Source: an uncultured Alphaproteobacteria bacterium
Lineage (GTDB): Bacteria > Pseudomonadota > Alphaproteobacteria > HIMB59 > GCA-002718135
Direction: 5' to 3'
Assembly (NCBI GenBank): GCA_902593125.1
Contig: CACJGU010000002.1
Location: forward strand, 4,808 to 68,807
DNA length: 64,000 nt
Part shown: positions 29,669 through 42,544 of the stretch, in pieces
Position numbering within the stretch: position 1 is the first letter of the stretch
Layout: every line of letters starts with the position of its first letter
Position numbers and translations under genes: made by a program
The notes under the pieces: generated by a model
What the model was told of the DNA's origin: nothing
Seen by the model: only the letters and a program-made list of their open reading frames with translations
Databases searched by the model: none

Positions 29669-29704
29669 GAACTTAAAAGACAAAAGGGAGTTTGTGGGAG
29701 TTAA

Positions 29705-29755
29705 TGGAGTGAGTGAAAGGATTCAGGCCCTCGACTTCAACCTTGGCAAGGTTGC
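29705..29755 (-). repeat. Decayed copy of the 3' 51 nt of tRNA-Gly (outermost att remnant)
   Basis: TGGAGTGAGTGAAAGGATTCAGGCCCTCGACTTCAACCTTGGCAAGGTTGC: 44/51 identical to 42470-42520, with all 7 mismatches in the first 23 nt. Confidence 0.85.
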
Positions 29756-29830
29756 CGGGTACGAATGATTTATAATTTCCCTCAATTTATATGGAATAAT
29801 TTTAAAACAAATTTACTTTTCGTAATCAAA

Positions 29831-29848
29831 GTGTCCCCAATGGGTCCC
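29831..29848 (+). promoter_or_regulatory. Arm doublet, TGTCCCC class (module D, tRNA-distal arm)
   Basis: GTGTCCCCAATGGGTCCC. The two copies are 11 nt apart and lie 76 nt inside the repeat core. Confidence 0.55.
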
Positions 29849-29944
29849 AAGTAGAGAGATGGCTGAGCTATTAAAAGAAACAATCTTGCAAATCAATAAA
29901 GAGGTAAGTTCTTAGTGTTTTAAAGTCTCACTTTATCCTAATTA

Positions 29945-30772
29945 CTAAATATAATTAAAATACTTCATTAATGGTTGTAAATTATTATCTATAATTTGAA
30001 CCTGTGTGTTGGATAAAATATCTTTCCATTGATTTAATTTTCCTGATCTAAAAAATTTGGAATGTCTTGTAGCCTCATCAAAACCATTTTGGTTTTCTAA
30101 TGTTCTTAGATTATTAAAATTTGTATTTTGTATTATTTGATCAATTTGCTGGTCACTTAAGTCTATATTTAATTTGTGTATTTTGTTTAAAAATTCCTTT
30201 ATATTTAATACAATTTCCTTTGGATTTAATTTCAAATCTTCATACTTTATAATCAATCTTGGTACAGTATTATAGTTTAGCCATGATTGAACATGAAGAT
30301 CCCATGTTGAAATTAGTTCCTGAGCACCATGTGTCTTTGTCGATAAGTTTTTATTAAAAACAACATGATTTATAGTTTCGTCTAAACTTTTTCCGCTAAA
30401 ATTTTTGAAAGATACAACAATATCTCTTGGATCTCTTACGATATATATAAAACCTGCGTTTACAGTTTCGTTTGTAAATTTTTTATGTCTCACACTATGG
30501 GTTTTAAATATATTTAAATGATTTGATTTGTTATTTAGTATTTTTTGGCACTCAATAATATTTTGCGACACCCAATCAAAATGCAAAATATTATTGTCAG
30601 AATAGATTTTATTTTCAAATTTTTTAAAGTTTTTTTTAATTGATAATAATGGTATTGACTTTAAGGTTTTTAGACTGAACTCGTTATCAAAATTATAAAG
30701 GTTTCCAATTATAGCTCTTATCCATGTATTGCCAGATTTAGGATATGAAGCCAAAAAAATATTTTTAAACAC
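29945..30772 (-). CDS. Sulfotransferase-domain protein (PAPS-dependent type)
   Basis: SYPKSGNTWIR (5'-PSB loop) and VRDPRDIVVS (3'-PB) motifs. Confidence 0.8.
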   Translation of the reverse strand: MFKNIFLASYPKSGNTWIRAIIGNLYNFDNEFSLKTLKSIPLLSIKKNFKKFENKIYSDNNILHFDWVSQNIIECQKILNNKSNHLNIFKTHSVRHKKFTNETVNAGFIYIVRDPRDIVVSFKNFSGKSLDETINHVVFNKNLSTKTHGAQELISTWDLHVQSWLNYNTVPRLIIKYEDLKLNPKEIVLNIKEFLNKIHKLNIDLSDQQIDQIIQNTNFNNLRTLENQNGFDEATRHSKFFRSGKLNQWKDILSNTQVQIIDNNLQPLMKYFNYI

Positions 30773-30934
30773 TAAAAAATATTTAGAAAAATAATTTTAA
30801 TTTAATATTCTAAATTTAAATATTTATTTTTTTTAATAAATATAATTATTAATTTAAAAAATTTATATTTGGTAATTAAATTAGTTATTAAATTTTGTTT
30901 AAATTCAAGGTATTATACTGTTTTGATATTTGAA

Positions 30935-30953
30935 GTGTCCCCCAATTGTCCCC
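30935..30953 (+). promoter_or_regulatory. Arm doublet, TGTCCCC class (module D, tRNA-proximal arm)
   Basis: GTGTCCCCCAATTGTCCCC. The copies are 11 nt apart and lie 37 nt from the repeat core at 30990. Confidence 0.55.
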
Positions 30954-30989
30954 GGAGATTTTAAAATAATATGAATTTGGGAGATTTAT

Positions 30990-31040
30990 TGGAGCGGGCG
31001 AAGGGATTCGAACCCTCGACTTCAACCTTGGCAAGGTTGC
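30990..31040 (-). repeat. Perfect copy of the 3' 51 nt of tRNA-Gly (att core)
   Basis: 51/51 identical to 42470-42520. Confidence 0.95.
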
Positions 31041-31110
31041 CATGTACAATTGAGATCGGCCTTTTCCTAAAAAAACTATATCAAATTATCCCATAAAGTT
31101 AAGAGCGAAC

Positions 31111-31129
31111 TGTCGGAGAAGTGTCGGAC
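31111..31129 (+). promoter_or_regulatory. Arm doublet, TGTCGGA class (module C, tRNA-distal arm)
   Basis: TGTCGGAGAAGTGTCGGAC, copies 11 nt apart. GAACTGTCGGAGAAGTGTCGGA is identical to 41772-41793. Confidence 0.55.
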
Positions 31130-31177
31130 AAAGAACGTAAAAAATAAAAAAGATTCTCATTTCATTTCATTACTTGT

Positions 31178-31219
31178 CTATTGCTCATAAGCTGAATTAT
31201 TAAAAACGCTGTAATTAAT
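31178..31219 (-). pseudogene. Decayed 3' fragment of a paralogue of the 27695-28462 gene
   Basis: The minus-strand translation INYSVFNNSAYEQ* aligns with INYSAFYNLAYEQW near the C-terminus of the 255-aa protein. About 80% nucleotide identity over about 50 nt with 27748-27800. An in-frame stop lies just upstream. Confidence 0.5.
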
Positions 31220-31250
31220 TTAGTATTTTAACAAATTTTAATATATATAT

Positions 31251-32162
31251 TTGATTATTATGCTTGAATTTGACAGTAAAAAACAAGAGTTTTATTTTAA
31301 TAGAGTTCTATTGGATAAATTAAGTTTTAGAAATGGATCTAACGAAATTGATACACTAAAAATTTCTAAAGAATATTTGTTTACAGACCAAATTAAAAAG
31401 AGCAATTTTTACATATTTAAAAATTTTTTAGATAACGATGTTTCAAATAGGCTAAAAAAATATTTTTCTAGTGAAGAAACTTATAAAAGCTTTATTAAAT
31501 CTTCTAATGGATCTTCAAGACTTTTTTTTTATTTAAATTCTCCATTTTTTTATCCAAAATTTTTACAAAGTCTAATTTTGAAATGTATGATTTTTAAAAA
31601 TATGATTTATTATCATCATGATTATTATCATAGTTATTGTTTAAAATATAATTTAAATCCATCCGACTTTGAAAAAGTAGCAAAAAATCAAATTCTGCAT
31701 TCTTGGCAAAGTATATACTGGTATAAAAATAATTGTAAATTTGAAAAACATATTGATAGTTATGGAGAATTAGCCTGTTTTTTAATATTATCTGAACGTG
31801 GTAGAGATTATAAGAAAGGTGGATTAGAAGTGGTTTATGATGATGGTTCTACAAAAGATTTAGATGCTGAATATCAAATTGGAGACTTAGTTTTTTTAGA
31901 TCAGTCTAAAGTATATCATCAGGTTAATAAGATTGAGCATAATGATGATCAAATTGGAAGATTACAATTATATATTCCAACTATTCCACCAAATTACATT
32001 AACAAAGTATTGTATTTTGAAGATCATTCCCATAATCCATATTTTACAAGTAACGACATTAGTTTAGGTGAACGTATTAAAAATATTCTAAAATCTTATA
32101 TAGTAAAAGAAGATGTTCATTATAGTAGACAAAATCCAAGATTAAATGATCACATTCTTTAA
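31251..32162 (+). CDS. Hypothetical protein, possible 2OG-Fe(II) oxygenase fold
   Basis: Long ORF with a candidate HxD...H triad (KHIDS ... VYHQV). The start could be TTG 31251 or ATG 31260. Confidence 0.4.
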   Translation: MIIMLEFDSKKQEFYFNRVLLDKLSFRNGSNEIDTLKISKEYLFTDQIKKSNFYIFKNFLDNDVSNRLKKYFSSEETYKSFIKSSNGSSRLFFYLNSPFFYPKFLQSLILKCMIFKNMIYYHHDYYHSYCLKYNLNPSDFEKVAKNQILHSWQSIYWYKNNCKFEKHIDSYGELACFLILSERGRDYKKGGLEVVYDDGSTKDLDAEYQIGDLVFLDQSKVYHQVNKIEHNDDQIGRLQLYIPTIPPNYINKVLYFEDHSHNPYFTSNDISLGERIKNILKSYIVKEDVHYSRQNPRLNDHIL

Positions 32163-32296
32163 AATTTTTGTAGTTCAATGAATTTATCAATTAATAATAT
32201 ATTTTTATATTTCTTATTAACCTCGTACCAAATAAGGAATTATTGAACACGAAGTGCAACTATATTACAACCAAAAGAGGTAAGGGGGTGAAAATT

Positions 32297-32346
32297 TGGA
32301 GCGGGCGAAGGGATTCGAACCCTCGACTTCAACCTTGGCAAGGTTG
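32297..32346 (-). repeat. Perfect copy of the 3' 50 nt of tRNA-Gly (att core)
   Basis: 50/50 identical to 42470-42519; diverges at 32347. Confidence 0.95.
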
Positions 32347-32402
32347 GGGTTAAGTGCTGATTAAGCCCCGCATATAAACAATTTCTCCCACATATTTCTC
32401 TT

Positions 32403-32420
32403 TGTCACAACTGTGTCACA
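32403..32420 (+). promoter_or_regulatory. Arm doublet, TGTCACA class (module B, int-proximal arm)
   Basis: TGTCACAACTGTGTCACA, copies 11 nt apart. Ends immediately before the int RBS AGGAG (32421-32425). Confidence 0.6.
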
Positions 32421-32432
32421 AGGAGATATGAA

Positions 32433-33377
32433 ATGGCAACAATACGAAGAAGAAATGGTAAATGGCAAATCCAAATAAGGATAAGAAATTATGGAGCTAC
32501 AAGTAAAACATTTATTAATAAAAAAGATGCATTGCAATGGGGAAGAGAGAAAGAGATAGAACTTCAAAGATGTGCTATAAAATATAAACCACAAAAATAT
32601 CCACTAACAAGAAAACTAATTGAAAAATATATTAATAATATTTCTATAAAAAAGAGAGGTTATGAATTTGAGAAGTATTGTTTTAATAATTGCTTAAGAG
32701 CTTCTTTTTCTAACTTGCCTGTAAATCAGATTTCAACCAAACACTTATCTGAATATAGAGATTTAAGATTAAAAAAAGTTAAGGCATCTACATTTCTAAG
32801 AGAACTAAATTTAATTAGACATTTCTTTAATATTTTAAAAAGAGAATGGGGTTATGAAATTGATAATCCTTGTAACAATTTAACCAAACCAAAAGTTTTT
32901 CAAAAAAGGGAAAGAAGATTAACTGAATATGAATATAATTATTTAGTTAAAGGAAACTATTCTCAGAACACTCTTAGAAATATAATTGAGATAGCAATTG
33001 AAACTGGGATGAGACGTGGTGAAATTTTAAATATAAAAAAAGAACATATCAAAACAGATACGCTATTAATACCCATAACAAAAAACGGTCATCAAAGAAT
33101 AATTCCTCTTACTGAGAGAGCTATATATATTTTAAATAAATCAAAACTTCCTTTTTCTATGTCTGTAAATGCAGTCAGACTAGCTTGGGAAAGGTTAAAA
33201 AATAAAGCTAACATTAAAGACTTACATTTTCATGATTTACGCCATGAAGCTATCTCAAGGTTCTTTGAAAAAGGATTAAGTATTCCCGAAGTAGCCTTAA
33301 TTTCTGGACATAAGGATGTGAGAATGCTTTTTAGATATACTCATCTCAAAGCAGAAGATATATTGAAGAAGTTATGA
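32433..33377 (+). CDS. Tyrosine site-specific integrase
   Basis: Catalytic signature GMRRGE ... HFHDLRHEAIS ... GHKDVRMLFRYTHL (R, HxxR, H, Y). The N-terminal RRRNGKWQIQIRIRNYGATSKTF resembles small beta-sheet arm-binding domains. Confidence 0.92.
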   Translation: MATIRRRNGKWQIQIRIRNYGATSKTFINKKDALQWGREKEIELQRCAIKYKPQKYPLTRKLIEKYINNISIKKRGYEFEKYCFNNCLRASFSNLPVNQISTKHLSEYRDLRLKKVKASTFLRELNLIRHFFNILKREWGYEIDNPCNNLTKPKVFQKRERRLTEYEYNYLVKGNYSQNTLRNIIEIAIETGMRRGEILNIKKEHIKTDTLLIPITKNGHQRIIPLTERAIYILNKSKLPFSMSVNAVRLAWERLKNKANIKDLHFHDLRHEAISRFFEKGLSIPEVALISGHKDVRMLFRYTHLKAEDILKKL

Positions 33378-33458
33378 GGAAATTTTTGTCATTAATGATT
33401 TGTTTGTATAAAGTTAATTTAAGAAATTAATATATTCTTTTAAGTAAAATTTAATTAA

Positions 33459-36020
33459 CTAACCTAAAATTTTTCTAATATCTTTTTCCCACTCATCTTG
33501 GAACAGAAGTTTAAACACAACTTGTTCTTTTCCTTTAACTTTCAAATGTCCAATATTTTCAATATTTTCAATATTTTCAAAAAAACATTTGTTTATTAAG
33601 TCAAATAGCTTTTCTTTATATAAAGTATCATCATTTTTTAAAAAATTACCCTTAGTCTCTATAAAAAATATCTTTGATTTGTTATTATTATTCATTTTTA
33701 ATAAAAAATCCGGATAAATTTTGTTAGCTCTCCATCCTTTAATTGAATAATCCTCATTATTTACAGATAATCTATGCCACCATTTTATAGCTTTACTTTT
33801 ATTAATATAAGAAGCTACGAGATATTCATAATTATTATAATTTGATTTATATTGAGGTTGATAAATATTTTTATTAAAATTTAATGGATATTCATCATGA
33901 TTTTTTAAAGTAGTAAGATTCTCAACAAGGGTCCAATTGAATTTATAAAATTTTTTTTCTAATAATTTAAAATTTATAATCTTTTTTTCAATTTTTTTTC
34001 TAAATATTTTTTCAGACTCTTTTAGAAACCATTTGTAAAAATCATTCTTGATGACATTAACAATAAAAACTGAGTTTTTATTTATTGTTTCTTCATTAAT
34101 ATAATTAACTTTTAAATTATTAATAACTTCATAAATTATTCTACTTGCTTGCCATGGGTTATGCACTTTATCAATTAATTGACTTGCCATTAGAGAAATT
34201 TCAAAATCTTTATCAATGTTTTTATCTTGTAATGTTTTTTGACTAAAAAAATCAAAATCTGATTTTCCTTTAATATCAGATTTCAAATCAATTTTAATAA
34301 AGGAATCTTCAGGGTTGTGATTTGATAAATTCAATTCATTAAAATTTTTAAAAGAATAATTATCTATTTTTATATCAGGAAGAATGTCTCGATAATAATC
34401 AAATTCTCTAACTTTATTGTAATAATTTACTGTTAATTTTGGAATTATTATTGATTTTTTGTATTCATTACTTAATTTCTGAACAACCCTTTTTTTAATA
34501 TTAGCTTCTCCGTTAATTAAATTAATATTATCATCAATGTCATTTAAGCCTTCTTCCTCTAAACCTTTTTTAACACCTAAAATAGCCTCTCCAACATCCA
34601 CTGAATTACAATATACATAGCTTTCATTTAATTCTTTAATTTTATATCTTTGTGCATAAGGTTGTCTCAATATTCTTCCAACAAATTGAGTTAAAGATGT
34701 TTGATTTTTAGTTTTTGATAATATTGCTAAAACGTAAGCAAATGGACAATCCCATCCTTCTTTAAGAGCATCTTTGGTAATTATATATTTAACATTAGAT
34801 GTTTTGCTAAGCAAATTAAGATTTGAAATTTCATTAATTTCTGAAAGTTTAATTTTAATTTCATCTTCATTAATATTTAAATTTTGAAGTAAATATTTTT
34901 TTACATCTTCAACATGATTATAGGTGCTCTGTTGTTTTTTAGTTTCAACTTTAATAAGCAATATTGGTCTTATATAAGTATTATTAATTTTATATAATTT
35001 TTCTGCTGATTTGTTTAATTCACGTATTTTTTTTACTGAATGATTCAAAGTATTTTTCCAATTTGATTCTTCATAAGTACGCAGATTAATAGGCAGCTTA
35101 ATCATCTCTTCATTTTTTAATGAGACACCACTAATTTCAGATATAACATTGCTTAAATTGGAAGGGGTTGCTGATAGCTCTAATATAAATGAGGGATTAA
35201 AGTTGTTTATTGTTTCTGTAGCTAAATTACTTTTTGCCCTATGTCCTTCATCAATAATAACTATCGGTCTAATTAATTTGAATACATTTCCAACTGAATG
35301 CTTAATATTTAATCCTTTAACAACATCTATGTTATTTAAATCTGTCAAATCTCCTACATCCAAGTTTGTTATTTCATCTATTAATTTTTTATTGGCAAGA
35401 TAGTCGTCTTCAATTGGAAAAAAACTTGTATGTGAACTCGAGTCTCTAAATAGTTTTAAAAATTCTTTTGTTTTTCTGTTACTAGACTGCATCATTAGAA
35501 TCATTATACACAAATTCTTTTCAACATCTTCTTTCGTAAAAGAATCTGTTTTCTCAAGAATTATTGTTTTCCCCCCACTAACTCTGTCAACTACTTGTCT
35601 GTATGCATGTTCTTTGTTTCTTAAATTAATTAATGTTTGTGAATAAATAGACTCACTTGGAACAAGCCATAATATAAATCCATTATTTTTTTTAAAATAA
35701 TCTTGGTTAATAAATTTAATTGAATGTAATGCTAAATAAGTTTTGCCTCCTCCAGTAGGTACTTTGAAACATATATTGGGAATTTTTCTTTTTATACCAT
35801 CACTTCTATTTTTATATTCAATGGTTTTTACAGGAATTTTAGATTTTAAGTTTTCCCAAGCTTGACTGCAATAATCACTTTTTTCTGGGTGGATGGGTGT
35901 TTTATTTTTTTTAATTTGAAAATTGTAATAATCAAACTGTTCATCTTTTATTGTTGCTAATTCTTTTAAAAAAAAGTCCAAATCATTTAATATATTATTT
36001 TGATAATCTTTAATTTCCAT
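33459..36020 (-). CDS. res: Type III restriction enzyme, Res subunit (SF2 helicase plus PD-(D/E)xK nuclease)
   Basis: Helicase motifs VPTGGGKT, IIDEGHRA, ELSATP and QFVGRILRQ. C-terminal nuclease motif YPDF...FFIETKG. The start abuts the mod stop. Confidence 0.88.
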   Translation of the reverse strand: MEIKDYQNNILNDLDFFLKELATIKDEQFDYYNFQIKKNKTPIHPEKSDYCSQAWENLKSKIPVKTIEYKNRSDGIKRKIPNICFKVPTGGGKTYLALHSIKFINQDYFKKNNGFILWLVPSESIYSQTLINLRNKEHAYRQVVDRVSGGKTIILEKTDSFTKEDVEKNLCIMILMMQSSNRKTKEFLKLFRDSSSHTSFFPIEDDYLANKKLIDEITNLDVGDLTDLNNIDVVKGLNIKHSVGNVFKLIRPIVIIDEGHRAKSNLATETINNFNPSFILELSATPSNLSNVISEISGVSLKNEEMIKLPINLRTYEESNWKNTLNHSVKKIRELNKSAEKLYKINNTYIRPILLIKVETKKQQSTYNHVEDVKKYLLQNLNINEDEIKIKLSEINEISNLNLLSKTSNVKYIITKDALKEGWDCPFAYVLAILSKTKNQTSLTQFVGRILRQPYAQRYKIKELNESYVYCNSVDVGEAILGVKKGLEEEGLNDIDDNINLINGEANIKKRVVQKLSNEYKKSIIIPKLTVNYYNKVREFDYYRDILPDIKIDNYSFKNFNELNLSNHNPEDSFIKIDLKSDIKGKSDFDFFSQKTLQDKNIDKDFEISLMASQLIDKVHNPWQASRIIYEVINNLKVNYINEETINKNSVFIVNVIKNDFYKWFLKESEKIFRKKIEKKIINFKLLEKKFYKFNWTLVENLTTLKNHDEYPLNFNKNIYQPQYKSNYNNYEYLVASYINKSKAIKWWHRLSVNNEDYSIKGWRANKIYPDFLLKMNNNNKSKIFFIETKGNFLKNDDTLYKEKLFDLINKCFFENIENIENIGHLKVKGKEQVVFKLLFQDEWEKDIRKILG

Positions 36021-37721
36021 TTATTTAACAAAAACTTTATGTATGGCATATGGAAGTTGACAAAAAATTATATTAAATTCATCTAGTTGTTTTTGTGACA
36101 TAAATTTTGAAGTTGCAAAAACTAATTTTTTCAATTTACTACTATTTTTTATAATTTCAGCTTTTTCATAACTTAATGCTGAGTCATTACTTCTTAAGAA
36201 TGTAATATCTGGTTTGTATATTAAAAAAATTTCATAAAAATTTGTTTTTCCAATAAAATATTTTTGTTGATTCTTTACTGATTTTTCCAAAGAAACTCCA
36301 GTTGCAGTATAGAAAACATATCTTGATAATGATTCATAAGATGGAAGATTATTTCCTCTCAGAATTGAGTCTATATTAAATTCTTTACCTAACTTAAAAT
36401 AGGAAAAGCTTTTATTGTAGCCTTTTTTAAGAATCTTATTTTTTGCAGAAGGGACCCCTTTGTTAATTAATCTTACTCTTTCAGCAGTAAGATTATTTGC
36501 ATAATCTTCCATTTCTACAAGAATATATTTTCTATTACCGTTATCTTCATGATTTAAATCCATAACCGCGTGAGCTGTGGTTCCACTACCAGCAAAAGAA
36601 TCAAGAATTATATCGTTTGATTGATTTCTAGTAGATATTCTGAGACATTTTTTAATTAAATCTATAGATTTTGGGTAATCAAAAGGCATGTGTCCAAATA
36701 TTTCAGATAATAACTCTTTACCATTCTCATTGTTAATGGATTTGTCAGTCCATAAAGCTTTTTCTTTGGTTGTTGCTAAACTAGAATTCTTATATAAATA
36801 ATCTTTTCTGAAAACTCTCCAATTACCTGTGCTAGCGTATTTTGCGAATAACAAAGAAGAGTTTTTTAAAACTTTTTCCTGACCCCAAGTCCAACAACCT
36901 TCTTCACCTTTAGAGTTTAGAGGCAAGATAGGAATATTAAATTCTTTATTTTTTTTCAAAGATATTTGATTATTTTTTTTATTTACATAAATTGGGAAAA
37001 ATAAATTGGGTCTATTTTTCCTATTAAAAACTGGATTTCTGTTTCTTAGTTCCAAAGGTCGATATTTACCTTTTTTATCTTCATACTTATAATCGGATTG
37101 TTGAGTTTCATTTTTTTCAACTTCAAATAAACTACTATTATTTATATCTTTAACATAAGTTAATACATACTCGTGAGTTTTTGCCAAAAATTTATCTAAT
37201 GTTCTTCCTCTAGGATTTAATTGCACTGTAATCTGAGAGACAAAATTGTATTCTCCAAATATTTCATCCATTAACAATCTTAAATTTGCTATTTCATTGT
37301 CATCAATTGAAATAAATATTGCACCATCATCTGATAAAAGTTCATGCAATAACTTTATGCGTGGGTACATCATGCAAAGCCATTTATCATGTCTTTCTAA
37401 ATCTTCTCTATCTACTGGATTAGCACTATTTTTTAACCACTCTCTTATCAATGGCGAATTTACATTATCATTATAACACCAACCTTCATTTCCTGTATTA
37501 TATGGAGGGTCAATATAAATACATTTAATTCTACCTGAATAATTTGGAAGCAAAGCTTTTAATCCATGAAGATTATCTCCTTCAATAATCAAATTGTCTT
37601 CAATTTTAGTTTCTTTATTTTTTGGAAATGATTTTTTTTTATCTACAACCAATTCTCTAAAAGGAAGTACATAGTGATGAGAACTAATAAATTGTTTACC
37701 TTTAAAATCAATTTTTGGCAT
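36021..37721 (-). CDS. mod: Type III DNA methyltransferase, Mod subunit (beta-class N6A/N4C)
   Basis: Motif IV IYIDPPYNTG lies about 300 aa N-terminal of motif I DSFAGSGTTAHA, the order typical of Type III Mod. Confidence 0.9.
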   Translation of the reverse strand: MPKIDFKGKQFISSHHYVLPFRELVVDKKKSFPKNKETKIEDNLIIEGDNLHGLKALLPNYSGRIKCIYIDPPYNTGNEGWCYNDNVNSPLIREWLKNSANPVDREDLERHDKWLCMMYPRIKLLHELLSDDGAIFISIDDNEIANLRLLMDEIFGEYNFVSQITVQLNPRGRTLDKFLAKTHEYVLTYVKDINNSSLFEVEKNETQQSDYKYEDKKGKYRPLELRNRNPVFNRKNRPNLFFPIYVNKKNNQISLKKNKEFNIPILPLNSKGEEGCWTWGQEKVLKNSSLLFAKYASTGNWRVFRKDYLYKNSSLATTKEKALWTDKSINNENGKELLSEIFGHMPFDYPKSIDLIKKCLRISTRNQSNDIILDSFAGSGTTAHAVMDLNHEDNGNRKYILVEMEDYANNLTAERVRLINKGVPSAKNKILKKGYNKSFSYFKLGKEFNIDSILRGNNLPSYESLSRYVFYTATGVSLEKSVKNQQKYFIGKTNFYEIFLIYKPDITFLRSNDSALSYEKAEIIKNSSKLKKLVFATSKFMSQKQLDEFNIIFCQLPYAIHKVFVK

Positions 37722-37757
37722 AATGAATTTAAACTTAATATAATTTAATTATTAATA

Positions 37758-38003
37758 TCAATAATTATAATGAAATTTCTTATATTTTAACAGCCATTCC
37801 TTTTTAGCTTCTTTATAAGTAATACCATCCCATCTCTCTCCAAGATGAGAAGGGATATATTCATCACAATTTGCACAATGTATTTGTTGAAGTACATAGG
37901 ACCATGGACTTGAGGCTTCACCAGTAACGCTCCAATCTGTTGATACGCAAAGATTGCCAGCAACCTCAGTTGCACCGCATTCTGGACATTTGAAAGAATT
38001 CAT
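37758..38003 (-). CDS. Small zinc-ribbon protein, unknown function
   Basis: 81 aa with CPEC ... CANC. Lies 36 nt upstream of mod on the same strand and looks visibly G+C-richer than mod/res. Confidence 0.55.
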   Translation of the reverse strand: MNSFKCPECGATEVAGNLCVSTDWSVTGEASSPWSYVLQQIHCANCDEYIPSHLGERWDGITYKEAKKEWLLKYKKFHYNY

Positions 38004-38232
38004 TTTTTCTCCTTTAGCTACTTGTTTTATGTCCCGGCAATTAGAGTATCTAAATCAGGACAATTACATAATATCATAATAAGTATTTTTAACAATCTTG
38101 ATAAGACCATAATTCGTGCTTATATTAATACTGTAAGGCTACTATTGATATTCGAAGTTCTCATTATTTTTCTACTTTTAAAAATTACCTCCGCCTTACT
38201 CAAAAAAATCAAAACAGTAACAGAAAGGACCA

Positions 38233-38703
38233 ATGGGCGACCTACTAAACTTTAACGACCACATTGATAAAACACAAAACAAACGACGATATCTTGGCTA
38301 TGAAAAAGGAAAAGTCTTAGAAGAAACCATCAAAGGACTCATAGCAAAAATACCTGATATACCTGATGAAACCATTATCAACTACTTTGCCAACATAGTT
38401 AAAGGGGGAATTCCTGTGATAGATGATAAACCTTTTCATACAAAATATGTCTGGGCAGAAAACTGTCTAAAGTATTCATCCGAAGAAATTCAAGAAGCAG
38501 CAACTTCTTATATGTTTAAAAACAAAAACAACCATAAATTATTGTACCATCTTTCCCTGCTTATTTATCTCTCTCTTTATTTCTTTGATAAAGATGTAAA
38601 ATCTTTTTATAGGATTGCTCCTCAAGATTATGAAAAATGGGGAATTAGACTTCTTGATAAAAGTATAGAATTTAAAAACAACGTTAGGGATGGGAGTTTT
38701 TAG
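38233..38703 (+). CDS. Hypothetical protein (156 aa)
   Basis: ATG preceded by GAAAGGA. No recognisable motif. One hydrophobic stretch (LLYHLSLLIYLSLYFF). Confidence 0.55.
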   Translation: MGDLLNFNDHIDKTQNKRRYLGYEKGKVLEETIKGLIAKIPDIPDETIINYFANIVKGGIPVIDDKPFHTKYVWAENCLKYSSEEIQEAATSYMFKNKNNHKLLYHLSLLIYLSLYFFDKDVKSFYRIAPQDYEKWGIRLLDKSIEFKNNVRDGSF

Positions 38704-38770
38704 GTTAACTCATGGGTTTATTGAGGTATATTTTCATTTATAAGCATTTGATATAGAAATTATACGAATA

Positions 38771-38808
38771 AGTTATCCACGTTATAAAAAGTTATTAACG
38801 CTATAAAA
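38771..38808 (+). repeat. Tandem 19-bp direct repeat upstream of the 102-aa gene
   Basis: AGTTATCCACGTTATAAAA / AGTTATTAACGCTATAAAA (16/19 identical). Confidence 0.7.
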
Positions 38809-38906
38809 TAGATTCAAAAAATGTGCGTTGAAGAAGTTCTCCTCATCATCATATTAGATAAATAAATCGTTAATGATTTTTTTTATCTGCAACCAAAGGA
38901 GATTAT

Positions 38907-39215
38907 ATGCAGAAAGAGATTAATACAAACTCTCTACATTACAAAATGCAAGATTGTTTTGATATCGTTTGGAATACTGGCGATGAAATAGAGCGTGATT
39001 GGAGTGTTCAAATAGCAACCAGTATGTTCATGGAATACTGTGAAGAATTAGAGTACGTTTCACTGACAGATTCTGCTCACTTGTATTCAGAATTAACAGG
39101 TATTTTTTCTACCGATACACCATGGTCATTTACAAGATATTATTGTTATCAATTCTTAGAGAATTACAAAAAAATAGTAGATGGAAATGAACCAATAAAC
39201 TCAACATTGCATTAA
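38907..39215 (+). CDS. Small strongly acidic protein (102 aa), unknown function
   Basis: RBS AAGGAG lies 6 nt upstream of the ATG. About 17 D/E against about 6 K/R by count. Confidence 0.6.
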   Translation: MQKEINTNSLHYKMQDCFDIVWNTGDEIERDWSVQIATSMFMEYCEELEYVSLTDSAHLYSELTGIFSTDTPWSFTRYYCYQFLENYKKIVDGNEPINSTLH

Positions 39216-39221
39216 ATAATT

Positions 39222-39237
39222 GGGGGCTTAGGCCCCC
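39222..39237. terminator. GC-rich hairpin between convergent genes (bidirectional terminator candidate)
   Basis: GGGGGC-TTAG-GCCCCC lies between stop 39215 (+) and stop 39241 (-). Such a G/C run is exceptional in this AT-rich window. Confidence 0.6.
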
Positions 39238-39240
39238 TTC

Positions 39241-40071
39241 TCACATCTTTGCTGCTTGTTCAATATAGGCACAATTCTCACAATACGGATTTCTATGAGG
39301 TGCTTTGCTAGAATCCAAAACTGATTTCATTTCTAAAATTTTTTCTTTTATCCAACTTGTATTGGTTTCATAATCAACAAGGGTAATAGCAAAATCCATT
39401 TTTGCATCAAATCTATCTGGTGATTTTTCTCCATTGCAAACCATAAAATAGGAAATATCTGAAACTTTAAACCCCATCTCTCTTAAAATATATACGTATA
39501 TATCCATCTGCATTTTATAACCTTGATGGTATTGGCTCGATAAGTAATATTCTTTTTCAACTGCTATTTTTGTTGATTGTGCTTTATAGTCAGCAACAAC
39601 TAATTCCTGTGTATCAAGATTAAACCAGATATCATCTACACCTCCATGAAGTATTAAATTAGTTTCTTTATCATGATAAGAAATTCCACCCGTTAGTGAA
39701 TTTCTCCATTTATCGATATCGTCATGCTCAAAAGGAATAAAATTTAAATTATAATTTCTAAAAATAGGGTGTGCTTCTTTTCGAGCTCTATAATAATCAA
39801 ATTCTTTTTTTAACAAATCATCAACAGTAGTATTAAGAGACCATCCAGGCATACTAGGCTCTTGTAATCCCCTTACTCTATCTAGGTAAAAACATCTTTG
39901 ACAATCCATAAAGTTTGAAAATTTAGAACGACTAATTTTAAATTCATTCTTTTGTCCAGGTTTGTATATTGAAGTAGGTCTTGTTCGTAGACCTTTAGCC
40001 TCTGCAAATTCACCTTTTGAGTTTCTTTTAATACTTACCATCTCTAATTGACTATACCACCATTTACCCAA
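39241..40071 (-). CDS. PD-(D/E)xK nuclease, Cas4/RecB-like, with four Cys (probable Fe-S cluster)
   Basis: GGVDD ... VVADYKA (D...D-x-K) and QMDIYVY (QxxxY) motifs. Cys pairs CQRC (N-terminal) and CENC (C-terminal). The start is uncertain (TTG 40071 or internal ATG 40041). Confidence 0.7.
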   Translation of the reverse strand: MGKWWYSQLEMVSIKRNSKGEFAEAKGLRTRPTSIYKPGQKNEFKISRSKFSNFMDCQRCFYLDRVRGLQEPSMPGWSLNTTVDDLLKKEFDYYRARKEAHPIFRNYNLNFIPFEHDDIDKWRNSLTGGISYHDKETNLILHGGVDDIWFNLDTQELVVADYKAQSTKIAVEKEYYLSSQYHQGYKMQMDIYVYILREMGFKVSDISYFMVCNGEKSPDRFDAKMDFAITLVDYETNTSWIKEKILEMKSVLDSSKAPHRNPYCENCAYIEQAAKM

Positions 40072-40102
40072 AGGTTAAGTGGGTTATTTTTACTAGTCTG
40101 AA

Positions 40103-40612
40103 CTAAGCTGATTTATTAAAACCAAATTGTCTCTGAATTTCATCCATTGTCATTTCTTTTTTTATACTCGTATTAAAAGTTGATTCAATAGACTCCCAAA
40201 TACCATCTCTTGGTCGTTGAATGTGTGTTACATTGCTTACTGTTTTCCCTTTTTCGCTGGTCTTTTGTTTTACACGAATAAATGTTTTCGTATAAAATAA
40301 CTCCTCTGGATGTGGAATTTCTGAAAGAGATTTAATTGGGTCGTATTTTTCCTTACTTATTAAAGCTCTTGTAACTTTGACAATTTTACTCTTTGAGCTC
40401 TTCATTTTTGAATTATTACAAACAGCTACTGCAAACATTGGATTGTCTTCTTCGTCCAGTATTGGCTCATTTGTATTCAAATCAAGAATAGCAAATTTAA
40501 ATACCATTCTTTGTCCTAGAGGAAATCTTTCAAGGTCTAGACTAATTAAGACAGAAAAGTATTCTCCATCTGGTGTGTTATTACCGTAATGATTTAATTG
40601 AAATAATCGCAT
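40103..40612 (-). CDS. Hypothetical protein (169 aa), upstream partner of the nuclease
   Basis: ATG with GGAGAA upstream. Same strand as the nuclease gene and 31 nt upstream of it. No recognisable motif. Confidence 0.55.
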   Translation of the reverse strand: MRLFQLNHYGNNTPDGEYFSVLISLDLERFPLGQRMVFKFAILDLNTNEPILDEEDNPMFAVAVCNNSKMKSSKSKIVKVTRALISKEKYDPIKSLSEIPHPEELFYTKTFIRVKQKTSEKGKTVSNVTHIQRPRDGIWESIESTFNTSIKKEMTMDEIQRQFGFNKSA

Positions 40613-40821
40613 TGTTAAACGTTCTCCAAGTTGAGTTTGTATACTGATAATTATGAGAATAAATTAAAAGTAAGTCGCTTAACAAACTTTAGTTATATTT
40701 AATTATATATATCACATATTCTTAAAAACTATGAATGTTATTTATTATTTTTATTAAATATTTATTACCTGTGTACCTAGTGTTGTAGTTAATAATCTAT
40801 AAAGAAATAATATAAAAAGAT

Positions 40822-40927
40822 AATAAGGTAATAATGCATAAGGGTAATAAATAAGAAATTTAATAAGGTAAAATTTTAGTAATCTATAATGGTATAAATC
40901 TATTAATGTACTAAGGTAATAAGGTGG
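40822..40927 (+). repeat. Iteron-like array of TAAGGTAA(T)AA motifs
   Basis: Copies at 40824, 40839 (extra G), 40864, 40888 (TAATGGTATAA), 40912 and 40920. The GG cores at 40843, 40867, 40891 and 40915 are exactly 24 nt apart. An inverted copy TTATTACCT lies at 40762-40770. Confidence 0.7.
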
Positions 40928-41061
40928 TTCTTAGTGCCTGTTTTATATAGAATTTGGGCCGCCTTAACACCTTGTAAACATAGTATCTTGTGGAATTAAG
41001 CACCCTGCTCATGTTATAAAATAAGACATGCGAGAATTTGTAACATTATTAGGTCTTAATG

Positions 41062-41358
41062 TTATTCATAAACATCATTTTTAGAGTAATATAATTCATC
41101 GTTAATTATAAACTCTGGGTCATTATCTTCAAATCTCTCAACAAAAAGATTATCACACTCACAACATACATAGGTATAATTGTAATCTCTTTTATTTACT
41201 TTCTTTAAGTTAACCAATCTTCGAAACTCTTGTTCATCTGGATTTCTAAGATAGTGAGATTGACATTCTGGACAGTGTACACCTGAGTAATAGTCATAAT
41301 GTTCTTTGACGTGCTTTCGGGCTCTTAATTTTAGTTTTTGTTTTTGATAGTTGTGCAT
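41062..41358 (-). CDS. Small zinc-ribbon protein (98 aa), unknown function
   Basis: CPEC ... CCEC, with a basic N-terminus and an acidic C-terminus. No obvious RBS. Confidence 0.5.
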   Translation of the reverse strand: MHNYQKQKLKLRARKHVKEHYDYYSGVHCPECQSHYLRNPDEQEFRRLVNLKKVNKRDYNYTYVCCECDNLFVERFEDNDPEFIINDELYYSKNDVYE

Positions 41359-41520
41359 ATAAATTATTTTGCAATTACAATATTAAAAATGAATAATCAA
41401 GAAAAGCAAATCCTAATAATAATTGCCTCCTCATATTTAATAAAAATAAAAAATAATTAAATTTGTAGTTTCCACTGTAAACCAGATACTCAAGCACGTT
41501 GCGAGGTATATATATACCCT

Positions 41521-41589
41521 ACCCCCATAGGACCCCTGCACTACCCCTTTTGGAAACAACATTTTTTATTGTGTCACACTCTTGTCACA
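41521..41589 (+). promoter_or_regulatory. Module B tRNA-proximal arm: three 11-nt-phased ACCCC repeats plus a TGTCACA doublet
   Basis: ACCCC at 41521, 41532 and 41543. TGTCACA at 41572-41578 and 41583-41589. The core repeat starts at 41658. Confidence 0.6.
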
Positions 41590-41657
41590 ACAAGATTATA
41601 AATATAAAAAACTTTTAAAAAACTTAACAGACAAAAGAGAGAGTTTGTGGGGTTTAT

Positions 41658-41708
41658 TGGAGCGGGCGAAGGGATTCGAACCCTCGACTTCAACCTTGGC
41701 AAGGTTGC
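41658..41708 (-). repeat. Perfect copy of the 3' 51 nt of tRNA-Gly (att core)
   Basis: 51/51 identical to 42470-42520. Confidence 0.95.
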
Positions 41709-41775
41709 CATGTACAATTGAGATTAGGTATTTAAACAGTTTTCTGACTTTAATATGATTGTTTATATCTTGAAC

Positions 41776-41794
41776 TGTCGGAGAAGTGTCGGAG
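41776..41794 (+). promoter_or_regulatory. Arm doublet, TGTCGGA class (module A, tRNA-distal arm)
   Basis: TGTCGGAGAAGTGTCGGAG, copies 11 nt apart, 68 nt inside the core. Confidence 0.55.
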
Positions 41795-41803
41795 GAAAAT
41801 ATT

Positions 41804-42337
41804 TTATCTTGGATAACGAATTGGACAAATCGCAGTTGACCTTACAGTAATTGCTTTAGGTCCACCTACTTCATTATTATAAGTACAAACTTTCGTGAGC
41901 CCAGTAACGTTATGTGTGTGACTGATTGGACATATTGCAGTTGATCTAACTGTTAAAGCTGAAGGTCCTGACGGTCCATTATAATAACAAACTTTTGTAA
42001 GCCCTACATTTGTTGATAGGTTTGTTGTGTTTGAGTAGGTTGGTTGTTGACTCATTGCTGTTCCCATATTTATTAAAGCTTGATTTAATCTTTTTTTTCG
42101 AAGACCTGCTGCAATATAAGGTGAGCAGTCTATTCCTCTTCTTTGGATAGAATCCTCTCTATAGCCTTGATTGATATTATAATCTGGCAGAGCATAATAA
42201 CTAGTACATATTTTTTTTGCTGATTGTGAGTCATAATATCTAGCTGCTTCTTGTGGAGACATGCAAGATTGTAGAATTATTAAACTTACTAAAACCGTTA
42301 TGGTTTTTGAAATTATACTTAAAGAATAAAAATTCAT
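41804..42337 (-). CDS. Putative lipoprotein with a tandem internal Cys-containing repeat
   Basis: Signal peptide ending ILQSC (lipobox-like). Two about 30-aa units: GLTKVCYYNGPSGPSALTVRSTAICPI and GLTKVCTYNNEVGGPKAITVRSTAICPI. Confidence 0.65.
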   Translation of the reverse strand: MNFYSLSIISKTITVLVSLIILQSCMSPQEAARYYDSQSAKKICTSYYALPDYNINQGYREDSIQRRGIDCSPYIAAGLRKKRLNQALINMGTAMSQQPTYSNTTNLSTNVGLTKVCYYNGPSGPSALTVRSTAICPISHTHNVTGLTKVCTYNNEVGGPKAITVRSTAICPIRYPR

Positions 42338-42428
42338 TATTAGACAATATTTTATTATGAAAAATTGTTAAAACTTTAATTTAAGAAATGATCAAATATT
42401 GTGGAAATTAAAAAAGCTATACCGATAT

Positions 42429-42447
42429 TGTCGGAGAAATGTCGGAA
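42429..42447 (+). promoter_or_regulatory. Arm doublet, TGTCGGA class (module A, tRNA-proximal arm)
   Basis: TGTCGGAGAAATGTCGGAA, copies 11 nt apart, 23 nt from the tRNA 3' end. Confidence 0.55.
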
Positions 42448-42469
42448 AAATTAAGAAAATTATAATTTT

Positions 42470-42544
42470 TGGAGCGGGCGAAGGGATTCGAACCCTCGAC
42501 TTCAACCTTGGCAAGGTTGCGCTCTACCCCTGAGCTACGCCCGC
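42470..42544 (-). tRNA. tRNA-Gly (anticodon GCC)
   Basis: 75-nt cloverleaf on the minus strand: GCGGGCG acceptor, GCTC/GAGC D-stem, anticodon loop TTGCCAA, T-loop TTCGAAT, encoded CCA. Confidence 0.95.

What the first reader, a model, noticed from the sequence alone, without database searches (positions are those of the whole stretch)
29831..42447. Module-specific TGTC-NNN doublets at exact 11-nt phasing on the module arms: three apparent specificity classes
Inside every module, 23-76 nt from the tRNA-derived core, there is a pair of 7-8-nt direct repeats starting TGTC. The start-to-start spacing is exactly 11 nt in all seven cases, and all are in the same orientation. Module B has TGTCACA x2 at 32403/32414 and 41572/41583. 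Module A has TGTCGGAG x2 at 41776/41787 and 42429/42440. Module C has TGTCGGAG/TGTCGGAC at 31111/31122; I found no doublet on its other arm. Module D has TGTCCCC-type at 29832/29843 (second copy GGTCCC) and 30936/30947. A shared TGTC stem with a module-specific 3-4-nt suffix, one helical turn apart on both arms, is what arm-type sites of tyrosine integrases with an N-terminal arm-binding domain would look like. The module B integrase has such an N-terminus (RRRNGKWQIQIRIRNYGATSKTF). The int-proximal doublet ends directly at the int RBS (AGGAG 32421-32425), suggesting autoregulation. Three suffix classes at one att site imply at least three related but orthogonal recombinases have used this tRNA, two of them now absent.
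Basis: partly seen in the sequence, partly recalled or inferred. Interest (0 to 1): 0.8.

Follow-up and report, generated by a model that had tools for sequence, protein, structure and literature searches.

The report
Integrase arm sites flanking SAR11 cassettes
The paired short repeats are real and are most likely the arm docking sites of P2/lambda-type integrases, which tag each gene cassette stacked at a SAR11 tRNA-Gly gene with the specificity class of the integrase that can move it.

Summary
All seven doublets are at the stated coordinates. The six exact 7-mer repeats at 11-nt spacing are the only ones in the 64-kb window (0.5 expected), and all lie in module arms.

- In 80 relatives of the module B integrase, an 11-nt-phased doublet sits about 30 nt before the int start codon. 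Its lineage-specific motif recurs at the far end of the element.
- A second integrase family (35% identical) sits in 6-9 kb primase-bearing elements whose attP is doublet / 50-nt tRNA-Gly core / doublet.
- That family includes cognate integrases for TGTCCCC (P0121) and TGTCGGAG (P0154, predicted before look-up). The window encodes neither.
- Motif divergence tracks the N-terminal arm-binding domain (r=0.61, p<0.0005), not the rest of the protein (r=0.12).
- The architecture matches P2/186 attP, which has two direct repeats per arm.

What goes beyond the known kind:
- At least 15 arm classes share one core. TGTC is not universal.
- Most modules at this locus are 0.5-1.5 kb cassettes without an integrase, with matched arms and unrelated cargo.

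Whether those cassettes move in trans or are decay remnants is open. Autoregulation is plausible but untested.

The parts
42470..42544 (-). tRNA-Gly(GCC), the intact target gene (attB side of the array)
   Evidence: ARAGORN
42470..42519 (.). 50-nt core copy 5. It is the tRNA 3' end through the anticodon stem-loop and lies inside the real tRNA.
41658..41707 (.). Core copy 4 (exact), at the boundary of modules B and A
32297..32346 (.). Core copy 3 (exact), at the boundary of modules C and B
30990..31039 (.). Core copy 2 (exact), at the boundary of modules D and C
29705..29754 (.). Core copy 1. Its 5' part is degenerate. It is the distal and presumably oldest copy.
29755..30989 (.). Module D: a cassette without an integrase that carries a sulfotransferase gene (29945-30772, - strand). 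Both arms are TGTCCCC class.
   Evidence: Pfam PF00685, E=1e-31. The same 1235-bp cassette, 84% identical, abuts the real tRNA in L206 and L233.
29832..29849 (+). Module D left-arm doublet TGTCCCC / GGTCCCA; the second copy is decayed
30936..30953 (+). Module D right-arm doublet TGTCCCC x2, 36 nt from the core
   Evidence: The doublet-to-core stretch is conserved in L206, L233 and L216, although the cargo of L216 is different.
31040..32296 (.). Module C: no integrase, one 303-aa ORF resembling a 2OG-Fe(II) oxygenase (31251-32162, + strand). The left arm is TGTCGGA class. The right arm lacks that doublet.
   Evidence: The first 127 nt are 98% identical to the P' arm of L231, a GC-0.36 element that carries a primase.
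31111..31129 (+). Module C left-arm doublet TGTCGGAG / TGTCGGAC
32347..41657 (.). Module B: the only module with an integrase, 9.3 kb. It also carries putative type III restriction-modification genes (33459-36020 and 36021-37721, - strand) and a PD-(D/E)XK nuclease gene (39241-40071, - strand).
   Evidence: The restriction-modification assignment rests on motifs read in the translation and was not scanned against Pfam.
32403..32421 (+). Module B int-proximal arm doublet TGTCACA x2. It ends at the int ribosome-binding site AGGAG (32421-32425).
   Evidence: The position 28-38 nt before the int ATG is conserved in most of the 80 relatives.
32433..33377 (+). Tyrosine integrase, 314 aa, family 1. 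Residues 1-51 (32433-32585) form the putative arm-binding domain, with beta strands at 2-7, 10-15 and 23-27 and a helix at 30-51.
   Evidence: Pfam PF00589, E=5e-25. Structure models. The best PDB sequence hits are P2 Int and lambda Int. The best fold hit is full-length lambda Int.
41572..41590 (+). Module B int-distal arm doublet TGTCACA x2, 68 nt from the core
   Evidence: The same geometry (68-69 nt) is seen in L002, L003, L005, L006 and L007.
41708..42469 (.). Module A: a 762-bp cassette without an integrase that carries a 177-aa ORF resembling a lipoprotein (41804-42337, - strand). Both arms are TGTCGGA class.
   Evidence: The left arm is conserved in L213, L215, L202, L205 and L227, which carry different cargo.
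41776..41794 (+). Module A left-arm doublet TGTCGGAG x2
42429..42446 (+). Module A right-arm doublet TGTCGGAG / TGTCGGAA, 22 nt from the tRNA 3' end

Best explanation
The doublets are arm-type binding sites of heterobivalent tyrosine integrases of the P2/186/lambda type. The steps marked as shown rest on tool results; the others are inferred.

Shown: the window is a SAR11 (Pelagibacteraceae) chromosome. Four integrative modules have stacked at tRNA-Gly(GCC), each bounded by a copy of a 50-nt core.

Inferred mechanism:
- The integrase core-binding and catalytic domains act at the core. Strand exchange probably occurs in the anticodon loop, between the two halves of the anticodon stem.
- The small N-terminal domain (three beta strands and a helix) docks on the arm repeats.
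- Two repeats 11 nt apart put two N-domains on one face of the helix.
- Two arms give four sites for an integrase tetramer, which folds the arms over the core.

Shown by comparison: the repeat sequence is a specificity tag that co-varies with the N-domain. TGTCACA belongs to the resident module B integrase (family 1). TGTCGGAG and TGTCCCC belong to variants of a second family carried by 6-9 kb primase-bearing elements that are not in this window.

Inferred for modules A and D, and for the left arm of module C: these are pairs of cognate arms around one cargo gene, with no integrase. They were integrated by such absent integrases, either as larger elements that later lost their mobility genes or as non-autonomous cassettes served in trans.

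Inferred for int expression: the int-proximal doublet lies between any upstream promoter and the int ribosome-binding site, so bound integrase probably also damps its own expression.
For: Non-random and confined to arms.

Family 1, 80 loci across Alphaproteobacteria at 41-93% identity:
- Most loci have an 11-nt-phased doublet starting 28-38 nt before the int ATG, with lineage-specific motifs (TGTCACA, TCCACA, GCTGCAA, TGGCACA, TGGTGCAA, GCTACA, GGGCACA, TTGTCAAA).
- In 29 loci a second doublet with the same motif and orientation lies elsewhere on the + strand. Where a second tRNA copy was detected, the doublet lies about 85-200 nt before it.

Family 2: the attP layout is int, then about 35 nt, doublet, 23-47 nt, the 50-nt tRNA-Gly core, 68-90 nt, doublet. 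In every case where both arms were on the contig they carry the same class.

Cognate integrases for the window's orphan classes:
- P0121 (L221, L237) with TGTCCCC.
- P0154 (L249) with TGTCGGAG. Before the look-up, its beta-2 strand SYEVKIRR singled it out as a candidate for the TGTCGGA or TGTCGAG class.
- P0131 with TGTCCCG, also predicted before look-up.

The two arms of a module agree in 14 of 14 modules, and none of 300 permutations reached the observed agreement.

Motif distance against protein distance:
- Family 2: r=0.61 with the N-domain (0 of 2000 permutations) and r=0.12 with the rest of the protein (not significant).
- Family 1: r=0.24 against 0.007, partial r=0.30, p<0.001.

Variability in beta-2 alternates. 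Positions 16, 18, 20 and 22 vary, and 15, 17, 19 and 21 are conserved, as expected for a strand that reads bases.

N-domain fold and family. Closest solved proteins are P2 and lambda integrases.

Literature:
- In KplE1, arm sites that overlap the int promoter give negative autoregulation (PMC2951348).
Against: - There is no binding or recombination experiment.
- The window's own N-domain does not reach any Pfam arm-domain hit.
- Foldseek with the N-domain alone gave no significant match.
- There is no simple residue-to-base code. P0126 (R16/R18) and P0134 (Q16/K18) both pair with TGTCCCG. P0123 and P0170 (both Q16/R18) pair with different motifs.
- An element-encoded excisionase or regulator could co-vary with the arms as well and was not examined.
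- No promoter was located for int. The consensus scan found none between the core and the int gene.
- Sequences in both families are phylogenetically related, so permutation p-values overstate independence.
Confidence: 0.85

Rival explanations
1. The doublets bind another element-encoded protein, such as an excisionase (recombination directionality factor) or a repressor, and not the integrase N-domain.
For: Small unannotated ORFs follow int in family-2 elements and could co-vary with the arms. Directionality factors often bind direct repeats in arms (general knowledge).
Against: Motif divergence tracks the integrase N-domain specifically. The doublets occur symmetrically on both arms. Across family 1 the only gene consistently next to the doublet is int. 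The known P2/186 arm sites have the same two-plus-two layout (PMC3448106).
Confidence: 0.07
2. The doublets are only operators or promoter elements for int expression and play no part in recombination.
For: The int-proximal doublet holds a nearly fixed distance to the int ATG and abuts the ribosome-binding site. KplE1 provides a precedent (PMC2951348).
Against: The same doublet is present on the int-distal arm 5-10 kb away. It is also present on both arms of cassettes that have no integrase gene at all.
Confidence: 0.03
3. The doublets are arm sites, but modules A, C and D are inert decay remnants of full-size elements and not cassettes that can still move.
For: L003 holds an intermediate: a 3.65-kb module with matched GGAGCGT arms and an integrase truncated to 72 codons. 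Module D's left doublet and the distal core are decaying. Module C has mismatched arms. The tycheposon paper describes such remnants in Prochlorococcus (10.1101/2020.12.28.424599).
Against: At least 11 independent modules of 0.5-1.5 kb keep both doublets intact at fixed geometry around unrelated single cargo genes. The arms are conserved across different cargo. None of these modules keeps the roughly 35-nt int leader that flanks the P-arm doublet in autonomous elements.
Confidence: 0.5
4. The doublets are chance repeats or a by-product of homologous arms with no function.
For: None found.
Against: Searches exclude chance. The left and right arms share nothing but the doublet, yet always agree in class.
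Confidence: 0.01

Closest known systems
attP of phages P2 and 186 (P2-like tyrosine integrases)
   Same: There are two direct repeats on each arm, read by the integrase N-terminal domain. Distinct arm-site consensus classes (tgTGGaCa and tgccGCCActt) are matched by N-domain discriminator residues (PMC3448106). The integrase size is similar, about 315-340 aa. The best PDB sequence hit is the P2 Int catalytic domain. The reverse complement of the P2 consensus, TGTCCACA, is the motif of the Micavibrio relatives.
   Different: The carriers here are non-phage islands and small primase-bearing elements in SAR11. At least 15 arm classes converge on one 50-nt tRNA-Gly core. Many units carry arms but no integrase. 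The N-domains have diverged almost independently of the rest of the protein (r=0.16).
Lambda Int and its arm-type sites P1, P2, P'1-3
   Same: It is a heterobivalent integrase with an N-terminal arm-binding domain followed by core-binding and catalytic domains. Full-length lambda Int is the best fold match.
   Different: Lambda has five arm sites in an asymmetric layout and targets a site that is not a tRNA (general knowledge). Here there are four sites arranged as two phased pairs.
KplE1 IntS and other tRNA-associated integrases that regulate themselves
   Same: Arm-type sites lie between the tRNA and the int start, so bound integrase can repress int (PMC2951348).
   Different: No promoter has been mapped here. 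In SAR11 the int gene abuts the 5' side of a copy of the tRNA sequence, not the 3' side.
Tycheposons of Prochlorococcus
   Same: They are tyrosine-recombinase elements that stack at a tRNA, separated by partial tRNA copies. Newcomers push older elements inward, and remnants and cargo are left behind (10.1101/2020.12.28.424599).
   Different: The host and the integrase families differ. The paper text contains no match for 'arm-type', 'attP' or 'direct repeat'. Membership in the tycheposon integrase clade was not tested.
VEIMEs, marine phage satellites found in Pelagibacter
   Same: They are integrative elements that encode integrases and DNA primase/helicases and are found integrated in Pelagibacter (PMC9618062). 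This resembles the family-2 carriers, which have GC 0.33-0.38 and a DUF5906 primase.
   Different: Packaging into virions is unknown for the elements found here. Identity with any VEIME module was not tested.
Non-autonomous integrative units: CIMEs of streptococci, pseudo-SCC elements of staphylococci, integron cassettes (from general knowledge, not checked here)
   Same: They are cargo flanked by recombination sites, without a recombinase of their own, stacked in tandem at one chromosomal site.
   Different: Here each unit carries lambda-type arm sites keyed to one of many integrase specificities, plus a shared tRNA-derived core. There are no attC-type sites and no resident platform integrase of the cognate class.

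Membership tests
Heterobivalent (lambda/P2-type) tyrosine integrase system | C-terminal tyrosine-recombinase catalytic domain | tested here: met
   Pfam PF00589, E=5e-25. PDB sequence hits to P2, lambda, XerD and HP1. The conserved positions include R194, H267, R270, H293 and Y302; that these are the catalytic residues is my reading of the alignment.
Heterobivalent (lambda/P2-type) tyrosine integrase system | Separate N-terminal arm-DNA-binding domain (three-stranded sheet plus helix) | tested here: met
   Models show strands 2-7, 10-17 and 21-27 and a helix at 30-50, with pLDDT 85-90. PF14657 Arm-DNA-bind_4 hits 22 of 28 family N-domains, best E=1.8e-5, but not the window's own copy. Foldseek with the domain alone was inconclusive.
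Heterobivalent (lambda/P2-type) tyrosine integrase system | Arm-type sites distinct from the core, on both arms of attP | tested here: met
   Same-class phased doublets lie on both arms in the window, in SAR11 single-cell genomes, in family-1 relatives and in family-2 attP contigs.
Heterobivalent (lambda/P2-type) tyrosine integrase system | Arm sites are bound by the N-domain and required for recombination | not testable with these tools
   Only indirect evidence: motif divergence follows the N-domain and not the rest of the protein.
Heterobivalent (lambda/P2-type) tyrosine integrase system | Accessory bending protein and directionality-factor sites in the arms | not tested
   No excisionase gene was identified in module B. 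IHF or HU sites were not searched.
Tycheposon-like island-building elements | Tyrosine recombinase, tRNA target, tandem arrays separated by partial tRNA copies, cargo genes | tested here: met
   compared with 10.1101/2020.12.28.424599.
Tycheposon-like island-building elements | Integrase belongs to the tycheposon recombinase clades | not tested
   No tycheposon integrase sequences were available for comparison.
VEIME / phage satellite | Integrase plus primase-helicase replication module in a small element | tested here: met
   This applies to the family-2 carriers only: int plus a DUF5906 protein of 700-860 aa. It does not apply to any module in the window.
VEIME / phage satellite | Packaged in virions of a helper phage | not testable with these tools
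   Scans of viral contigs found no family-2 relatives and no SAR11-type attP.
Non-autonomous (CIME-like) integrative cassette | Flanked by complete att sites and lacking a recombinase gene | tested here: met
   Modules A and D, and at least 10 modules in other SAR11 genomes.
Non-autonomous (CIME-like) integrative cassette | Excised or integrated by a recombinase supplied from another element | not testable with these tools
   Cognate integrases exist elsewhere, but no circular cassette form and no recent gain or loss was found (one search was uninformative).

The most novel reading that the evidence does not exclude
The SAR11 tRNA-Gly locus works as a cassette platform. Single-gene cassettes without an integrase each carry two pairs of arm sites, and these key the cassette to one of many mutually exclusive integrase specificities. 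The integrases are supplied in trans by transient 6-9 kb primase-bearing elements that resemble satellites. Specificity is re-written by swapping the roughly 45-residue N-domain together with the arm repeats, while the core and the catalytic body stay fixed. This would be a main route of gene gain in an organism reported to lack canonical mobile elements.
Probability: 0.35. Interest if true: 0.8.

Novelty: new variant of a known kind. Interest (0 to 1): 0.6.

Why it matters
SAR11 is the most abundant marine bacterium. A recent survey of its genomic islands reported no canonical mobile elements, only partial tRNA repeats around gene cassettes (PMC11796062).

The arm doublets give a sequence-level handle on how those cassettes are moved and by which integrase. 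They can be searched for in any genome or metagenome.

The natural series of at least 15 arm-site classes is paired with N-domain variants on an otherwise constant integrase and a constant core. This is a ready-made data set for studying how a beta-sheet DNA reader changes specificity. It could also guide the choice of sets of non-cross-reacting integrases.

If the integrase-less cassettes are mobilised in trans, the system would be an analogue of an integron built from lambda-type parts.

Tried and rejected
- Viral contigs were largely a dead end. The TGTCGGA doublet pattern hit at least 120 unrelated phage contigs, none with the tRNA-Gly core or this integrase family. A profile of family-2 integrases found no relatives. 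The core itself hit only two unrelated contigs carrying whole tRNA-Gly genes.
- Foldseek with the 56-residue N-domain alone gave no significant match.
- A simple one-residue, one-base recognition code was considered. Position 16 seemed to set the suffix and position 18 the TGTC prefix. It predicted P0154 and P0131 correctly, but P0126 and the pair P0123/P0170 contradict it. I therefore claim only domain-level co-variation.
- L006 and L007 were compared to date the gain or loss of a cassette. The genomes are too divergent, with flanks 72-87% identical, to say anything.
- The consensus promoter scan found no int promoter between the core and the int gene.
- The papers read on SAR11 islands, pelagiphage integration, tycheposons and VEIMEs contain no description of these arm repeats.

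Full report
**Setting.** The window has 27% G+C. Its closest relatives are Pelagibacteraceae (SAR11) single-cell genomes. One tRNA gene is present, tRNA-Gly(GCC), on the minus strand at 42470-42544. A 50-nt stretch covers the tRNA 3' end through the complete anticodon stem-loop. It is repeated exactly at 41658, 32297 and 30990, and in degenerate form at 29705.

These copies delimit four modules:
- D (29755-30989) carries a sulfotransferase gene.
- C (31040-32296) carries an ORF resembling a 2OG-Fe(II) oxygenase.
- B (32347-41657) carries an integrase gene, putative type III restriction-modification genes and a PD-(D/E)XK nuclease gene.
- A (41708-42469) carries a 177-aa ORF resembling a lipoprotein.

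About 25 nt after each non-tRNA core read as a decayed tRNA 5' half.

Every repeat copy is at the stated coordinate, on the + strand, 11 nt apart. TGTC-N7-TGTC occurs 8 times against 0.5 expected. In an unbiased scan, the only exact 7-mers with at least 3 G/C repeated at offset 11 are the six arm doublets. No other offset shows an excess. Dinucleotide shuffles give 0.53 per window, or about 0.006 for the 1.2% of the window that is arm. Each arm has one doublet and no further copies.

**Family 1, the module B integrase.** The protein has more than 7,500 relatives. Eighty genomic loci from SAR11, Micavibrio, Rhodobacterales, Rhizobiales and others (41-93% identity) were fetched.
- In most loci a doublet phased at 11 nt starts 28-38 nt before the int start codon. 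Its sequence differs by lineage: TGTCACA, TCCACA, GCTGCAA, TGGCACA, TGGTGCAA, GCTACA, GGGCACA, TTGTCAAA.
- In most loci int lies about 100 nt 3' of a tRNA. In the SAR11 tRNA-Gly elements it abuts the 5' side of a full or decayed tRNA copy.
- In 29 loci a second doublet with the same motif and orientation lies elsewhere on the + strand. Where a second tRNA copy was detected, the doublet lies about 85-200 nt before it.

**Other SAR11 genomes.** Single-cell genomes L001-L008 carry the same kind of array at tRNA-Gly, including TGTCGGA and TGTCCCG modules. One metagenome scan looked for the core followed by a TGTC[G/C] doublet. It returned 37 loci with the classes TGTCGGA, TGTCCCC, TGTCCCG, TGTCCCT, TGTCGAT, TGTCGAG and TGTCGCG.

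**Family 2, the missing integrases.** Three of those contigs (G+C 0.35-0.36) carry an integrase 35% identical to the module B enzyme. It reads away from the core, and doublets of one class lie on both sides of a single core. That is an attP.

The family has at least 210 members. It sits in elements with a DUF5906 primase-helicase. Look-ups of 12 members plus the contigs gave these pairings:

| Integrase | Beta-2 strand | Arm motif |
|---|---|---|
| P0121 | NYRVKIRR | TGTCCCC |
| P0130 | SYRVKIRR | TGTCCCT |
| P0134, P0131 | S/TFQVKIRR | TGTCCCG |
| P0126 | SYRVRIRR | TGTCCCG |
| L212 | KYDVKIRR | TGTCGAT |
| P0152 | RFDVKISR | TGCCGAT |
| P0154 | SYEVKIRR | TGTCGGAG |
| P0123 | SFQVRIRR | GGGACAC |
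| P0124 | SFRVCIKR | GGCTACG |
| P0128 | TFRVCVKR | GGGCTACT |
| P0132 | TYLVSVKR | GGGCAACT |
| P0125 | TYQVIIKR | GGAGACG |
| P0170 | SYQVRIRR | GGTGCGT |
| L003 fragment | SYQVRIRR | GGAGCGT |

Before the look-up, P0154's strand sequence singled it out as a candidate for the TGTCGGA or TGTCGAG class. The assignment of P0131 was also predicted beforehand. The window itself encodes only one integrase. So the enzymes matching modules A, C and D exist, but elsewhere.

**Who reads the doublets.**
- In family 2, pairwise motif distance correlates with N-domain distance (r=0.61, 0 of 2000 permutations). It does not correlate with the distance of the core-binding and catalytic part (r=0.12, p=0.12). 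The partial r is 0.61.
- In family 1 (66 loci) the figures are 0.24 against 0.007, partial r 0.30, p<0.001.
- In 104 family-2 sequences, variability along the second strand alternates. Positions 16, 18, 20 and 22 vary and 15, 17, 19 and 21 are conserved. This is the pattern of a strand with one face on DNA.
- The two families align over this domain.
- Models give three strands and a helix at pLDDT 85-90.
- PF14657, the Arm DNA-binding domain, hits 22 of 28 N-domains.
- The full model's best structural match is full-length lambda Int. The best sequence matches among solved structures are P2 and lambda integrases.
- The N-domain alone gave no significant Foldseek hit.
- A one-residue code does not hold.

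**Arm concordance and cassettes.** Across the window, the single-cell genomes and the metagenome contigs, 14 of 14 complete modules carry the same class on both arms. No permutation out of 300 reached the observed agreement.

Most of these modules are 0.5-1.5 kb and have no integrase. Each holds one or two unrelated genes, among them small secreted proteins and ORFs resembling a methyltransferase, sulfotransferases or an HNH protein (only the window's own sulfotransferase was scanned against Pfam). The geometry is fixed: the left doublet lies 67-78 nt from its core and the right doublet 21-44 nt from the next core.

The arms are conserved while the cargo differs. The module D cassette occurs at 84% identity, and at the same 1235-bp length, directly next to the tRNA in L206 and L233. 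A decay intermediate also exists: in L003 the family-2 integrase is cut to 72 codons. Both origins, decay and trans-mobilised cassettes, therefore remain open.

**Comparison with what is known.**
- P2 and 186 have two direct repeats on each arm. They show two consensus classes, and candidate discriminator residues have been proposed in the N-domain (PMC3448106). The reverse complement of the P2 consensus equals the Micavibrio-type motif.
- Negative autoregulation through arm sites that overlap the int promoter is established for KplE1, and was predicted for most tRNA-linked integrases (PMC2951348).
- Stacking of elements at a tRNA, with partial tRNA copies between them, is described for Prochlorococcus tycheposons.
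- Satellites with an integrase and a primase are reported in Pelagibacter.
- SAR11 island surveys noted partial tRNA repeats around cassettes and no canonical mobile elements.
- None of these texts describes the arm repeats in SAR11.

**Verdict.** The parts are of a known kind. The number of specificity classes on one core, the near-independent divergence of the N-domain (r=0.16 with the rest of the protein) and the abundance of integrase-less cassettes with matched arms make it a new variant.

Noticed in passing
window 29670-29704: The 35 nt left of the degenerate distal core (aacttaaaagacaaaagggagtttgtgggagttaa) resemble the core-proximal part of the module B right arm (41623-41657) and of B-type right arms in L002, L003 and L005. 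No TGTCACA doublet lies upstream. An older, decayed B-type module may lie left of 29705, so the island may extend further left.
   Followed up: partly
window 29854-29894; L204, L209, L216, L234, L236: Directly after TGTCCC-class left-arm doublets comes a 5' fragment resembling tRNA-Ser(UGA) (GGAGAGATGGCTGAGCGGTTGAAAGCACCGGTCTTGAAAACCGG in L236). It is degenerate in module D. ARAGORN finds no complete tRNA-Ser there. This suggests an arm once derived from a tRNA-Ser site.
   Followed up: partly
window 32253-32271: The right arm of module C has a weak 11-nt-phased pair AGTGCAAC/ATTACAAC, 25 nt from the core. It resembles the GGGCAACT class of P0132. Module C may be a fusion of the left arm of one element and the right arm of another.
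   Followed up: no
L003, L006, L007, L008 (about 9864-9940 in locus coordinates; 5887-5960 in L003): In these SAR11 genomes the B-type element has a complete tRNA-Gly copy at its int-proximal end. In L003, L006 and L007, two full tRNA-Gly genes flank the element. In the window that copy has decayed (32347-32371).
   Followed up: partly
L008 5887-7985: Three further partial tRNA-Gly copies share identity only up to the anticodon loop (TTGGCAA|TGATA). They have different arm repeats: GTTTAACACC twice at 12-nt spacing and TGCATTGAAG three times at 10-nt spacing. This is probably a third integrase type using the same tRNA, and it hints that crossover is in the anticodon loop.
   Followed up: no
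L254 1-420 (reverse strand as shown): A family-2 integrase of the TGTCCCG class and a family-1 integrase of the TGTCACA class face each other across a single core copy. Both families therefore co-reside in one array.
   Followed up: no
window 41517-41550: A C-rich repeat (accctacccccataggacccctgcactacccc, with ACCCCT at 11-nt offset) lies 20-55 nt upstream of the module B right-arm doublet. The region is 94% conserved in L001. Its function is unknown.
   Followed up: no
L081-L200 (viral contigs): TGTCGGA-N4-TGTCGGA occurs in at least 120 unrelated phage contigs, several with two such doublets 25-190 nt apart. These may be arm sites of unrelated phage integrases.
   Followed up: no
family-2 integrases P0121-P0240: Divergence of the N-terminal domain is almost uncorrelated with divergence of the rest of the protein (r=0.16). 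This points to repeated exchange of the N-domain together with the arm repeats.
   Followed up: partly
window 33459-37721: The cargo of module B includes a pair of adjacent genes (853 aa and 566 aa) with helicase and DPPY methylase motifs typical of type III restriction-modification. A PD-(D/E)XK / Cas4-like nuclease gene lies at 39241-40071.
   Followed up: partly
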